Shown here in pieces: positions 26,131 to 28,786 of a DNA stretch of 64,000 nt; positions within the stretch are counted from its first letter, which is position 1; each line of letters begins with the position of its first letter. The translations under genes were made by a program, and so were the position numbers. The DNA is from Patescibacteria group bacterium (lineage in GTDB: Bacteria; Patescibacteriota; Minisyncoccia; UBA6257; Colwellbacteraceae). The notes beneath the pieces were generated by a model that saw nothing but the letters and a program-made list of their open reading frames with translations, did no database searches and was not told the origin of the DNA. The stretch lies in the NCBI GenBank assembly GCA_023380475.1, contig JAMCRD010000006.1, positions 2,546 to 66,545 on the forward strand. Reading direction: 5' to 3'.

Positions 26131-27687
26131 TTATAGACTTGTAAAGTTCAACGGACTGCCCCCGTAGTTCAATGGATAGAACAGATCCGTCCTAAGGATA
26201 AAATAGGAGTTCGATTCTCTTCGGGGGCACCAAGTGAGAAATTGCAAATCCCCAGAAGTCGCCGCAGACGGCTGGGCGGCCAGTTCGTATTGTAATTTCG
26301 GGGCAAACGAGAATTCGCGGTTTCGCAAAATATGGTTCGAGCCGATGTTTTTGAGAAATGTTGTCATTGCAATTCCGTTATTCTCTTGAAGCAGTTTTGA
26401 GGCCTGATTGAGTGATAGAACGAACTCTCTCGCTGGTTCGAGCCACGACAGCCCTTTGTCCGCGAAATCGGATATTTTCTCCTGCAATCCGATTTTCCGA
26501 GAAAGCAGCTGTTCCTTCTTCGCGGCGTATTCGGTCTGGAACAGGGCGTCGGCAAGATAGGCATCGAGGAGTTTGGACAGCTTCGCCTCCACGCGGGCAA
26601 CTTCGTTTTTCAGAGTATCAATCTGCGCTCGCGCCTCCTCCCTTGCCTTGTCCCGTTCCGCCTCTAAGAGAGCTAACGCTTTCTCGGTATCATCGTCCGA
26701 CAAAGAAATTTTTTGCAGGAACGATTGTATATGCTCCGTCACTATCTCCTCGCGGAGATAGTGCTTTTCTTGGCACACGCCGCCTTTCTTTGTGCAACGA
26801 TAATAAGCATGGCCTTTCTGCATTTCGGCGGTGATGGAGCTTCCGCACGAGGCGCATTTCATAAGGCCGAGAAAAGCGAAATCATGCCGCTTCGTCTCAA
26901 TCGTCTTGCCGCGCTTTGCGCGCACCTCTTGGCAGAGGTCAAAAAGTTTCTTCGGGACAAGAGGTTCGTGGCGTCCCTCGTACAGTTCTCCGCGATACCG
27001 CATAAGGCCGTAATAGAAGGGGTTGGTTAAAATCTTCTGGATATTGCTAAGCGCAATCTCCTTGCCGAGGTTGCCTTTCAATCCTTGCTCTCGGCACCAA
27101 TCTACGAGGTCATGGAGCGTATAGCTTCCTATGGCGTAAAGCGCGAACAGCTTGCGGACAAGCGGGGCTTTCACGGGGTCAACATCAATCCCTCGCGTCC
27201 TCGGGTTGTTCAAGTAGCCAATCGGTGCCCAGCTCGGCCATACGCCGTTCCGTATCTTCTGCCGCAAGCCACGCTTTACGTTCTCCCGCAGGTTGTCCAC
27301 GAAGTATTTTGACTGCCCGAAGGCAATGTTGAGCATAAAGAGGCCTTGTGGTGTCGGCTCAAACCAGAACGTAGGGAACTTGAGGGACTTAATCAGGCCT
27401 CGGTCAATCATGTGGATGACCCGCCCGCCGTCCACGGAATTGCGGGCGAGGCGATCTGGGTGCCACGAGAGGATGCCCTGTGCCTTGCCGCGTTCCACGA
27501 ATGACAACATTTCAGCGAACTTAATACGGCCGGGTTCTTTGGCGGTCTTTGCCTCCTCAAAGGAAGCGACAATTTCAAGTTTTTCTTTGGCGGCAAATTC
27601 CCGAAGCTCCACCAGTTGAGCTTCTATGGACAGCACCTGCCCGTCGTCTTCTTCCGTTGATTTGCGAGCGTAGATTATGTATTTCAT
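26131..27687 (-). CDS. Large serine recombinase (integrase); its last ~32 codons run antisense through the tRNA
   Basis: YARKS catalytic motif, DRLARN, recombinase domain, zinc ribbon CASCG...YYRC...C, coiled coil. Confidence 0.95.
   Translation of the reverse strand: MKYIIYARKSTEEDDGQVLSIEAQLVELREFAAKEKLEIVASFEEAKTAKEPGRIKFAEMLSFVERGKAQGILSWHPDRLARNSVDGGRVIHMIDRGLIKSLKFPTFWFEPTPQGLFMLNIAFGQSKYFVDNLRENVKRGLRQKIRNGVWPSWAPIGYLNNPRTRGIDVDPVKAPLVRKLFALYAIGSYTLHDLVDWCREQGLKGNLGKEIALSNIQKILTNPFYYGLMRYRGELYEGRHEPLVPKKLFDLCQEVRAKRGKTIETKRHDFAFLGLMKCASCGSSITAEMQKGHAYYRCTKKGGVCQEKHYLREEIVTEHIQSFLQKISLSDDDTEKALALLEAERDKAREEARAQIDTLKNEVARVEAKLSKLLDAYLADALFQTEYAAKKEQLLSRKIGLQEKISDFADKGLSWLEPAREFVLSLNQASKLLQENNGIAMTTFLKNIGSNHILRNREFSFAPKLQYELAAQPSAATSGDLQFLTWCPRRESNSYFILRTDLFYPLNYGGSPLNFTSL
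26158..26232 (+). tRNA. tRNA-Arg(CCT), integration target
   Basis: GCCCCCG/CGGGGGC acceptor stem, GTCCTAA anticodon loop, AGTTCGATTC T-loop, CCA at 26230-26232. Confidence 0.92.
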
Positions 27688-27713
27688 CGTGTTAAAAATT
27701 TTCTTTTCCCAGT

Positions 27714-27812
27714 CGAAACCGCGAATTCTCGTTTGCCCCGAAATTACAATACGAACTGGCCGCCCAGCCGTCTGCGGCGACTTCTGGGGATTTGCAATTT
27801 CTCACTTGGTGC
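27714..27812. repeat. 99 bp inverted copy of 26227-26325
   Basis: Base-by-base reverse-complement match, no mismatch seen. Confidence 0.95.
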
Positions 27813-27897
27813 AGGACAATTGAGATAGCTCGAACGGTTTTTGACACCCCCACCGAGGCTAAATCTGAAACGCCCGACGTGGCGGAGCCGCACCGAT
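27809..27897. repeat. 89 bp inverted copy of 28659-28747
   Basis: Reverse-complement match with one mismatch (GACGTGG vs GACGCGG). Confidence 0.95.
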
Positions 27898-27966
27898 AAA
27901 GACCGCCAAAGAACCCGTTCCTAACATCGGCTCGAACCATATTTTGTGGGAAAAGAAAATTTTTAA
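27898..27966. repeat. Three short inverted fragments of the recombinase locus
   Basis: 27898-27917 = rc of 27531-27550; 27923-27946 = rc of 26326-26349; 27947-27966 = rc of 27692-27711. Confidence 0.9.
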
Positions 27967-27970
27967 TCAT

Positions 27971-28141
27971 ATGAAAAAAGCATTATTAATTATTTGTGAG
28001 TTTATAGCGACGGTAGTTATTTTCTTATTGATTTATAAATTTTTTAATTTATCAACAGCTTTACCAATATGGATTGTAATCGTCATCATTTTGATAAAAA
28101 CGACAATTAGCCACGACGGTAAAGACAAAGACGGGGCATAG
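27971..28141 (+). CDS. Small 2-TM cargo protein (56 aa)
   Basis: ATG at 27971 after the duplicated leader; AT-rich; two hydrophobic helices. Confidence 0.65.
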   Translation: MKKALLIICEFIATVVIFLLIYKFFNLSTALPIWIVIVIILIKTTISHDGKDKDGA

Positions 28142-28203
28142 GATTTTGAATATTGGTCAATCTGTTCCGCACCAATAAAGACACAAAGAAATAATTTTTA
28201 ACC

Positions 28204-28626
28204 ATGAAAAGATTAAAAAGTTTACTAGTGGTTTGGCTAGAAATTTTGGTCGGCGGCCTGATTTTAATTTTTGTGCCAGACATCAGATGGTTTCTGTTTT
28301 ATCTTTTAGTGATTGTTCTTATGACTTCGGTTATGCGAGCGGATTATCTGCGAAAGGTCGTCAGGGTGTTCCAAGTGGAGAATGGGGTTAATCTCGCTAG
28401 CATAGCCAAGAAACTCAACATATCGGAAGCAGAGATTCAGAAGTCCAGAGATGACCTTAGCGACAGCTTGCTGGACGACCAAAGAAAATCTTTGCATAAG
28501 GATATGGAAGAGCTTGGAATTTCCAGCCCCGAACGCTTTTACAGAAATCCAGTGGACGGCCTATCAGATACCGAAAGGGGTAAGAAATTCATGGATAAAG
28601 TTTTTAAGGACTTCGGGGATAACTAA
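28204..28626 (+). CDS. Hypothetical cargo membrane protein
   Basis: 140 aa, two N-terminal TMs, charged C-terminal domain. Confidence 0.75.
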   Translation: MKRLKSLLVVWLEILVGGLILIFVPDIRWFLFYLLVIVLMTSVMRADYLRKVVRVFQVENGVNLASIAKKLNISEAEIQKSRDDLSDSLLDDQRKSLHKDMEELGISSPERFYRNPVDGLSDTERGKKFMDKVFKDFGDN

Positions 28627-28658
28627 AATTTGCCGCCAAAGAAAAACTTGAAATTGTC
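28627..28658. repeat. 32 bp inverted copy of 27568-27599 (recombinase 5' coding region)
   Basis: AATTTGCCGCCAAAGAAAAACTTGAAATTGTC exact match. Confidence 0.9.
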
Positions 28659-28786
28659 ATCGGTGCGGCTCCGCCGCGTCGGGCGTTTCAGATTTAGCCT
28701 CGGTGGGGGTGTCAAAAACCGTTCGAGCTATCTCAATTGTCCTGCACTACTAATAATCTGCTAATTGAGCATATTATTAGTAGACC

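What the first reader, a model, noticed from the sequence alone, without database searches (positions are those of the whole stretch)
27692..28658. Non-coding DNA of the element is a mosaic of short inverted pieces of its own recombinase gene
Seen: after the internal attP come 20 bp from 27531-27550, a 5 bp gap, 24 bp from 26326-26349 and 20 bp from the recombinase leader 27692-27711. A further 32 bp from 27568-27599 fills the whole gap between the cargo stop and the right arm. All are exact reverse complements, and their order is permuted relative to the gene. Inference: a minus-strand transcript or ssDNA would pair with the recombinase coding sequence in several partly exclusive ways. Candidate explanations are cis-antisense control, a guide-like RNA, a folded ssDNA intermediate, or scars of repeated template switching.
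Basis: partly seen in the sequence, partly recalled or inferred. Interest (0 to 1): 0.8.

Follow-up and report, generated by a model that had tools for sequence, protein, structure and literature searches.

The report
Mobile element folding like DNA origami
A 2.5-kb mobile element of an ultra-small bacterium carries short exact inverted copies of its own recombinase gene, kept matched to that gene across dozens of relatives, so one DNA strand likely folds into a branched shape that would line up the element's two ends for joining.

Summary
They belong to a 2,521-bp large-serine-recombinase element (26227-28747) at a tRNA-Arg 3' end, probably of Patescibacteria. With the 99- and 89-bp arms they pair 389 of 404 non-coding bases and abut almost without gaps, giving a theta-shaped single-strand fold. 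All four recur in 35 of 46 full-length relatives. X and L2 change with their own gene on the same tree branches (23 shared changes each, slid controls 0-11). Paired synonymous sites are constrained. The coding sequence self-pairs (7.5 versus 1.0 expected, 48 of 48 loci); 22 outgroup recombinases lack the arms. Joining the ends restores a conserved recombinase C-terminus. There is no G·U bias overall, which favours DNA over RNA. Best reading (0.65): a folded single-stranded DNA intermediate with a DIRS-like internal splint. Against: this wiring is confined to one subclade, this copy's internal fold is weak, no free circle was seen, and nothing is tested biochemically. Ten literature searches found no description. 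This scan noted the family and its folding on other DNA; the junction geometry and tree-based tests are added here.

The parts
26158..26232 (+). Target tRNA-Arg(CCT); its last 6 nt are the first 6 nt of the element (attL)
26227..28747 (.). Whole element, 2,521 bp, with the same 4-nt core at both ends
26131..27687 (-). Large serine recombinase ORF (Resolvase, Recombinase and Zn-ribbon domains). As integrated it runs out into antisense tRNA sequence; the conserved C-terminal segment appears only when the element ends are joined
26227..26325 (.). L1: left arm and 3' end of the gene; pairs with 27714-27812 (99 of 99)
26326..26349 (.). L2: coding, continuous with L1; pairs with 27923-27946
26355..26368 (.). 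W: coding; pairs with 27500-27513 and closes the folded body of the gene
27500..27513 (.). W': coding partner of W
27531..27550 (.). X: coding (gene nt 138-157); pairs with 27898-27917
27551..27567 (.). 7-pair hairpin between X and Y (6 of 7 pairs here), covarying in relatives
27568..27599 (.). Y: coding (gene nt 89-120); pairs with 28627-28658
27692..27711 (.). Z: recombinase leader; pairs with 27947-27966
27714..27897 (.). Internal inverted copy of the joined-ends junction (L1' 27714-27812 and R' 27809-27897, shared core 27809-27812): the predicted splint or internal attP
27898..27966 (.). X' (27898-27917), 5-nt linker, L2' (27923-27946), Z' (27947-27966). Z' is also the leader of the first cargo ORF
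27971..28141 (+). Cargo ORF 1, 56 aa, hydrophobic; no Pfam family, one weak NCBIfam match far below its cut-off
28204..28626 (+). Cargo ORF 2, 140 aa; no family over a cut-off
28627..28658 (.). Y': fills the gap between the cargo stop and the right arm
28659..28747 (.). R: right arm (attR side); pairs with 27809-27897 (88 of 89)

Best explanation
The four pieces are conserved pairing partners of the recombinase gene that likely fold one DNA strand of the element into a theta-shaped structure, in which the internal inverted junction copy would act as a splint holding the two element ends together. Shown from sequence: helices L1/L2/Z meet at one node and R/X/hairpin/Y at a second. The nodes are joined by three edges: the roughly 184-bp att duplex; L2 plus X, with the folded gene body as a branch; and Z plus Y, with the cargo as an unpaired loop. 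Inferred cycle: (1) the element becomes single-stranded, most plausibly on DNA uptake (ComEC) or at a replication gap; (2) it folds, and host nucleases and ligase trim and seal the splinted ends, so no excision factor is needed; (3) sealing restores the recombinase's conserved C-terminus and a double-stranded attP; (4) the recombinase inserts the element at a tRNA 3' end, which splits the C-terminus again and probably leaves the enzyme impaired. Whether step 4 uses the folded strand directly (CTX-phage-like, resolved by replication) or a double-stranded circle (DIRS-like, with the flipped product purged) is not resolved. The short helices probably clamp the far ends of the att arms and protect the strand. 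Their near-perfect match is probably kept by selection plus copying across the paired strands.
For: Exact map with 389 of 404 non-coding nt paired. All four pieces found in 35 of 46 relatives that have both arm pairs (X 39, Y 44, Z 42, L2 44), from 57 non-redundant loci at 55-100% protein identity. Junction linkers are within 2 nt in 32 of 37 (X'-R'), 33 of 41 (R-Y'), 34 of 41 (L2'-X'), 36 of 44 (Z'-L2'), 33 of 47 (L1'-Z) and 40 of 48 (L2-L1) loci. Changes shared by both sides on one tree branch: X 23 (slid controls 0-7), L2 23 (2-11), hairpin 40 (0-21), L1 591 (148-254); the six X sites with repeated shared changes are all third codon positions. X matches its own partner at 19.3 of 20 against 16.7 for other loci's partners. 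Four-fold degenerate sites paired with X, Y or L2 have heterozygosity 0.26 (n=10) against 0.59 outside helices (n=51). Exact inverted matches of 11 nt or more within the coding sequence average 7.5 against 0.96 in synonymous shuffles, above expectation in 48 of 48 loci. 25 of 26 more distant clade loci have the left arm pair and all 26 show 3-15 such matches; 22 outgroup recombinases (31-38%) have no arm pair and 0-4 matches. Mismatches show no wobble preference: 70 G·T, 92 A·C, 89 transversion type on the sense strand. In-silico joined ends give a conserved WxxILxxxRTxF-like tail in nearly all of the 47 full elements, whereas the integrated tails are unrelated to each other. ComEC is present in 128 of 128 class genomes checked. 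A functional precedent is the DIRS-1 ICR (PMC7192593, passages).
Against: No single-stranded or circular form was observed. The left-right helices X, Y, Z and L2 are absent from 7 of 7 full-length distant members, which fold each half separately, so this wiring is not required across the clade. This window's copy has a weak internal fold: 2 matches against 0.77 expected, and folding excess of -28/-35 kcal/mol against -62 to -96 in three relatives. W covariation barely exceeds controls (10 versus 2-8), Y is too conserved to show much covariation (19.3 versus 18.9), and Z was not tested on the tree. The folding strand is not identified (29 versus 40 columns, p=0.23). ComEC, DprA and a reverse transcriptase were not found in this 98%-complete assembly. 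Helices were chosen by recurrence, which inflates the synonymous-site contrast. Serine recombinases are known to cut both strands together (recalled), so direct use of a folded strand would need unusual processing.
Confidence: 0.65

Rival explanations
1. Double-stranded switch and exchange system. The recombinase half flips between L1 and L1', which turns the gene to face tRNA read-through and joins it to its true C-terminus. X, Y, Z and L2 then become direct repeats serving as short homology sites for cargo swapping. The pieces arose by template switching and are kept matched by gene conversion.
For: Half-flipped forms with the four pieces as direct repeats exist (L172, L206). Derivatives have lost the gene body between X and L2 (L207, L191/L214), and one type carries other sequence between Z' and Y' (L191/L214). 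The internal junction is found joined to a tRNA in L106 and L113. Cargo is highly variable: 6 homologous pairs among 42 proteins. Z' is the cargo leader.
Against: It does not explain self-pairing throughout the coding sequence, constraint on synonymous sites, the covarying hairpin, or gap-free junctions. Flips are rare: 3 of 130 clade loci have a tRNA on the gene's 5' side against 98 on the 3' side. Flips with identical arms may be mis-assemblies.
Confidence: 0.15
2. RNA-level cis-antisense control. A transcript entering from the cargo side folds so that the leader (Z) and the early coding region (Y, X) are paired, which blocks translation of the recombinase from read-through RNA, as in IS10/IS50 fold-back protection (recalled).
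For: Three of the four pieces target the leader and the first 160 nt of the gene. Distant members also pair their leader, with other partners.
Against: There is no excess of G·U-type pairs on either strand overall. Pairing extends over the whole gene and both att arms, far beyond what translation control needs. The weak post hoc bias in X and L2 (4 versus 17 columns) points to the strand opposite the mRNA. No Rfam family other than tRNA-like matches was found.
Confidence: 0.12
3. The pieces form a guide-like RNA that directs the recombinase to its target or donor, in the manner of IS110 bridge RNA (recalled).
For: Close relatives use many different tRNA targets.
Against: The pieces match only the element's own sequence, with no exact match of 14 nt or more to the tRNA target or flank. 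The only target-matched part is the 4-6 nt core. The protein is a standard three-domain large serine recombinase.
Confidence: 0.03
4. One-off scars: a decayed inverted duplication or an assembly artefact with no function.
For: Exact repeats can mislead assemblers, and many relatives lie at contig ends.
Against: The pieces sit at the same positions in 35 of 46 full elements with allele-matched sequence. Single contigs span the junctions.
Confidence: 0.01

Closest known systems
DIRS-1 tyrosine-recombinase retrotransposons with an internal complementary region (ICR) (PMC7192593, passages read)
   Same: An internal stretch exactly complementary to both element ends. In DIRS-1 the ICR is essential, single-stranded DNA intermediates were shown, and the published model has ligation to a single-stranded circle.
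   Different: Bacterial; serine rather than tyrosine recombinase; no reverse transcriptase in the element or in this assembly; a 184-nt splint plus further helices running through the coding sequence; targets tRNA 3' ends; carries cargo.
CTX phage and related Xer-exploiting elements (PMC4439123, passages read)
   Same: The attachment site is the stem of a folded single strand; integration goes through a Holliday junction that replication converts into product.
   Different: CTX uses the host tyrosine recombinases XerCD at dif and makes its single strand by rolling-circle replication. This element encodes its own serine recombinase and no replication protein, and its fold spans the whole element.
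Large serine recombinase integrative elements and phage integrases (Bxb1, phiC31; PMC10083194, passages read; A118 and SprA seen in its reference list)
   Same: Resolvase, Recombinase and Zn-ribbon domains; attL and attR with a short core that varies between relatives; insertion at a defined site.
   Different: Keeps a complete inverted attP inside the integrated element; no shared second gene that could be a directionality factor (cargo is unrelated between copies); the att core splits the recombinase C-terminus; the gene is self-complementary.
Integron attC cassettes (recalled)
   Same: Folded single-stranded DNA as recombination substrate; variable cargo of one or a few genes with little flanking DNA.
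   Different: Tyrosine integrase IntI, short attC hairpins and a fixed platform. Here the recombinase travels with the cargo.
IS10/IS50 fold-back control of transposase translation (recalled)
   Same: An upstream inverted copy of the translation start region.
   Different: Here the pairing covers both ends and much of the coding sequence and shows no G·U preference.

Membership tests
Large serine recombinase integrative element | Resolvase, Recombinase and Zn-ribbon domains | tested here: met
   PF00239, PF07508 and PF13408 all over their cut-offs
Large serine recombinase integrative element | attL and attR sharing a short core, with site-specific insertion | tested here: met
   A 4-nt core at both ends; tRNA 3' ends of many isotypes in relatives. 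Host tRNA genes mostly end in discriminator plus C, so 4 nt is compatible with a 2-nt crossover
Large serine recombinase integrative element | A single attP that is consumed on integration | tested here: not met
   A second, inverted joined-ends copy is retained in 46 of 57 loci
Large serine recombinase integrative element | A directionality factor encoded for excision | tested here: inconclusive
   No shared second gene: 6 homologous pairs among 42 largest cargo proteins. A host-encoded or very small factor is not excluded
Large serine recombinase integrative element | Concerted double-strand exchange on double-stranded attP and attB | not testable with these tools
   Needs biochemistry; catalytic motifs look standard by eye
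DIRS-type elements | Internal region complementary to both ends | tested here: met
   27714-27897 is complementary to 26227-26325 and 28659-28747
DIRS-type elements | Reverse transcriptase, RNase H and tyrosine recombinase | tested here: not met
   Serine recombinase only; PF00078 not found in the assembly
CTX-type or integron folded-ssDNA recombination | Tyrosine recombinase (XerCD or IntI) | tested here: not met
CTX-type or integron folded-ssDNA recombination | Attachment site formed by folding of one strand | tested here: inconclusive
   Sequence capacity and covariation are shown; the folded molecule was not observed
Guide-RNA recombinases (IS110 bridge RNA, recalled) | Non-coding RNA with segments matching target and donor | tested here: not met
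   The pieces match only the element's own gene and leader; no Rfam family
Structured cis-antisense RNA | A transcript covering the region, and G·U-tolerant covariation on one strand | tested here: inconclusive
   No strand bias overall; expression could not be tested

The most novel reading that the evidence does not exclude
A family of bacterial mobile elements that travel as natural single-stranded DNA origami. One strand routes itself twice along each edge of a theta graph, splints and seals its own ends without an excisionase, completes its own recombinase gene in doing so, and is inserted by a serine recombinase acting on folded single-stranded DNA. In Patescibacteria it would ride on natural DNA uptake and work as a self-carrying gene-cassette system that deposits varied genes at tRNA ends.
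Probability: 0.45. Interest if true: 0.92.

Novelty: categorically new. Interest (0 to 1): 0.8.

Why it matters
I know of no serine-recombinase element that uses a folded single strand (recalled; not found in ten searches). I also know of no bacterial integrase gene whose codons are constrained to pair with its own non-coding DNA. If the model holds, it explains how a two-part element with no excisionase, relaxase, Rep protein or reverse transcriptase spreads. Recombinases of this clade were in about 64 of 301 class genomes, by my reading at E below about 1e-115. It would also identify a route of gene gain in Patescibacteria, extend the DIRS splint principle to bacteria, and offer integrases that may accept single-stranded donors at tRNA ends. 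The design makes clean tests possible, because synonymous breaks and compensating changes can be made in each helix.

Tried and rejected
Staple idea (mine): X, Y, Z and L2 hold the two halves together after both strands of the folded attP are cut. All four do bridge the halves in the close subclade, but 7 of 7 full-length distant members have no such bridges, so it is not general.

Strand identification by G·T versus A·C mismatches: no signal overall, and DNA folding energies were near-symmetric. The outgroup line ended in a script error.

A 4-nt core as a sign of unusual chemistry: rejected, because host tRNA genes mostly end in discriminator plus C.

Orientation as proof of single-strand exchange: 98 versus 3 loci, but selection against the flipped form explains it equally well. 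L173, first noted as a full flip, is on inspection a tandem with a shortened cassette, and L195 is ambiguous.

Free circles: none clean among the 27 of 121 metagenome stretches examined in detail. Viral contigs gave 2 partial close matches and 1 distant one; plasmids gave 3 distant matches at about 30% identity. Pattern searches in 401 phylum genomes found 4 integrated and 0 joined forms, too few to use.

ComEC association: uninformative, 64 of 64 genomes with the clade and 64 of 64 without a hit.

Expression: no RNA holder was listed. The sigma-70 scan gave 1 site against 3.3 expected.

One search timed out and was rerun. No protein structure prediction was run.

Literature searches without a description of this element: (listings and abstract starts only). 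Term look-ups in PMC12455944 and PMC10083194 found no mention. Supplements were not read, and most subscription journals are not covered.

Full report
Observation. Elsewhere in the window the longest exact inverted match is 16 nt, and 2 of 300 block shuffles reached 20 nt even once. Contigs of runs X1 and X2 span the junctions (one study, one run possibly the source sample).

The element. A large serine recombinase gene (26131-27687, minus strand; three Pfam domains over cut-off) lies in a 2,521-bp element, 26227-28747, at the 3' end of tRNA-Arg(CCT). Stretch 27714-27897 is the reverse complement of the right end joined to the left end: 99 of 99 and 88 of 89 nt, sharing a 4-nt core. Relatives of the protein were found in 134 of 301 class genomes at E<=1e-40. 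Most named relatives are Patescibacteria MAGs, so the host is probably one too. Relatives sit at the 3' ends of tRNAs of many isotypes. When the two ends are joined in silico the reading frame continues into a conserved WxxILxxxRTxF-like tail in nearly all of 47 full elements, while the integrated tails are unrelated antisense-tRNA sequence. The lead for this check came from earlier finding e1-6662169.

Anatomy of the pieces. The pieces are not scattered. L2 is continuous with L1 in the gene; Z abuts L1', and L2' abuts Z', so L1, L2 and Z form a three-way junction. X' follows R', Y' precedes R, and the 17 nt between X and Y form a hairpin, so R, X, hairpin and Y form a four-way junction. A 14-nt helix W branches between L2 and X and closes the gene body. 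Of 404 non-coding nt, 389 are paired. The result is a theta graph whose three edges are the att duplex, L2 plus X, and Z plus Y with the cargo looped out. The permuted order X'-L2'-Z'-(cargo)-Y' is the complement of a walk round the folded recombinase half that skips stems W and L1. This is read directly from the coordinates. That it arose by copying a folded template is inference.

Conservation and covariation. From 112 loci I kept the 60 with full flanks and at least 55% protein identity, and reduced them to 57 non-redundant ones. Of these, 46 have both arm pairs, and 35 of the 46 have all four pieces. Linkers at the six junction positions are within 2 nt in 32 of 37, 33 of 41, 34 of 41, 36 of 44, 33 of 47 and 40 of 48 loci, and the Y-X spacer is 16-21 nt in 40 of 40. 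On a tree of gene nt 200-1310, changes shared by both sides of a pair number 23 for X (slid controls 0-7), 23 for L2 (2-11), 40 for the hairpin (0-21), 10 for W (2-8) and 591 for L1 (148-254). The six X sites with repeated shared changes are all third codon positions. Y is nearly invariant, so its covariation is weak (19.3 versus 18.9 of 20), and Z recurs in 47 of 55 loci but was not tested on the tree. In five loci a hairpin of about 40-80 nt is inserted in Y' with both halves still pairing. Four-fold degenerate sites paired with X, Y or L2 have heterozygosity 0.26 (n=10) against 0.59 outside helices (n=51). Passive re-copying from the gene would not slow the gene's own silent sites. Caveats: helices were chosen by recurrence, loci are related, and elements may recombine.

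The whole gene folds. Exact inverted matches of 11 nt or more in gene nt 1-1350 average 7.5 against 0.96 in synonymous shuffles, higher in 48 of 48 loci; 9 loci with stops or N were left out. Among 26 more distant clade loci (43-51%), 25 have the left arm pair and all show 3-15 matches. The 22 outgroup recombinases (31-38%, including two paralogues in this genome) have no arm pair and 0-4 matches. DNA folding excess over synonymous shuffles is -62 to -96 kcal/mol in three relatives, -1 to -12 in three outgroup genes, and only -28/-35 in this window's copy (5 shuffles each). This copy's sub-lineage has lost several inner helices while keeping the four pieces. The cargo is unstructured and largely unrelated between copies.

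DNA or RNA. Mismatches in intact helices are 70 G·T, 92 A·C and 89 transversion type on the sense strand; the column-level split is 29 versus 40, p=0.23. A per-locus count was also not significant. Structured RNAs normally show G·U enrichment on one strand (recalled), so DNA is favoured and the strand is not identified. A post hoc bias in X and L2 (4 versus 17 columns) hints at the tRNA-sense strand. No RNA family other than tRNA-like matches was found, and expression could not be tested.

Results against a simple picture. The left-right pieces are limited to the subclade above about 50% identity. Seven of seven full-length distant members pair their leader and early gene within the recombinase half instead. 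The selected property is therefore folding itself, not this wiring. Among 130 clade loci (not de-replicated), 98 have a tRNA at the gene's 3' side, 3 at its 5' side (one has both), and 30 show none. L117 looks fully flipped, and L106 and L113 have the internal junction joined to a tRNA, which suggests the internal site can recombine as double-stranded DNA. A metagenome scan for the joined form gave 121 stretches, 51 with a clear native tail by my motif test. The 27 examined in detail included half-flips (L172, L206), tandems (L160, L173, L188, L200), derivatives that lost the gene body between X and L2 (L207, L191/L214) and ambiguous contigs (L195, L225, L226), but no clean circle. ComEC is in 128 of 128 class genomes checked but was not found in this assembly, nor were DprA or a reverse transcriptase.

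Mechanism. I put 0.65 on a folded single-stranded DNA intermediate. Shown: the architecture, its conservation, covariation, silent-site constraint and the split C-terminus. Inferred: production of a single strand, splinted trimming and ligation by host enzymes, expression of the completed recombinase, and insertion at a tRNA end. The integration substrate is unresolved. Rivals are a double-stranded flip-and-exchange system (0.15), RNA-level antisense control (0.12, possibly an added role for Z), a guide-like RNA (0.03) and scars or artefact (0.01).

Comparison. It works most like DIRS-1, whose ICR is complementary to both ends and is required for retrotransposition through single-stranded DNA (PMC7192593, passages). 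It also resembles CTX phage, whose attP is the stem of a folded strand (PMC4439123, passages). It is a member of neither, because it has no reverse transcriptase and no tyrosine recombinase. It has the protein and core of a large serine recombinase element but keeps a second attP and shows no shared directionality gene (general LSR properties from PMC10083194, passages). Competence in Patescibacteria is stated in PMC12455944 (passages). Ten searches (listings and abstract starts) found no description; supplements and most subscription journals were not seen. Earlier agents of this scan reported the family, the internal attP and the self-folding gene on other DNA; these are unchecked notes, not independent support. 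A word search for the junction or theta reading returned nothing.

Verdict. The feature is real, conserved and under selection. I rate it categorically new as a design, with the mechanism still untested. Interest 0.8.

Noticed in passing
G000:C2:18159-19211 (own genome, outside the window): tRNA-Arg(TCG) followed by a 282-aa ORF and then a 65-nt, 92% copy of Y' plus the start of the right arm. It looks like a decayed relative that left its cargo gene at a tRNA end.
   Followed up: partly
window 27947-27973, 27685-27711, 28186-28206: The recombinase leader, the first cargo leader and (partly) the second cargo leader are the same A/T-rich sequence placed 0-4 nt before a start codon. No consensus promoter was found in the element.
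   Followed up: partly
G000 whole assembly: ComEC and DprA were not found, although ComEC is in 128 of 128 class genomes checked; an assembly gap or a recent loss.
   Followed up: partly
L191, L214, L207, L196: Derivatives without a complete recombinase gene. L191 and L214 have other sequence between Z' and Y' in both halves, which suggests cassette exchange between the Z and Y boundaries.
   Followed up: partly
L012, L049, L053, L105, L112: Y' is interrupted by an inserted hairpin of about 40-80 nt with both halves still pairing to Y, adding a further junction.
   Followed up: no
46 full-length close relatives; L119-L131: Element length is confined to 2,302-3,141 bp in the close subclade and 3,172-4,320 bp in 7 distant members, which may reflect a limit on folding, uptake or packaging.
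   Followed up: no
window 28747-28783: A 16-nt inverted repeat directly after the right end and before tRNA-Arg(TCT), on the host side.
   Followed up: no
L002, L003 (G000:C5:89334-90761, G000:C1:2105-3424): Two further large serine recombinases (38-39% identical) in the same genome, without arms or self-pairing; used as controls.
   Followed up: yes
L159, L190, L220, L228, L234: Tandem arrays at tRNA-Ala of a distant subclade with 140-185 bp arms, in which a second element's right end restores the native recombinase tail or the gene is flipped; not resolved.
   Followed up: partly
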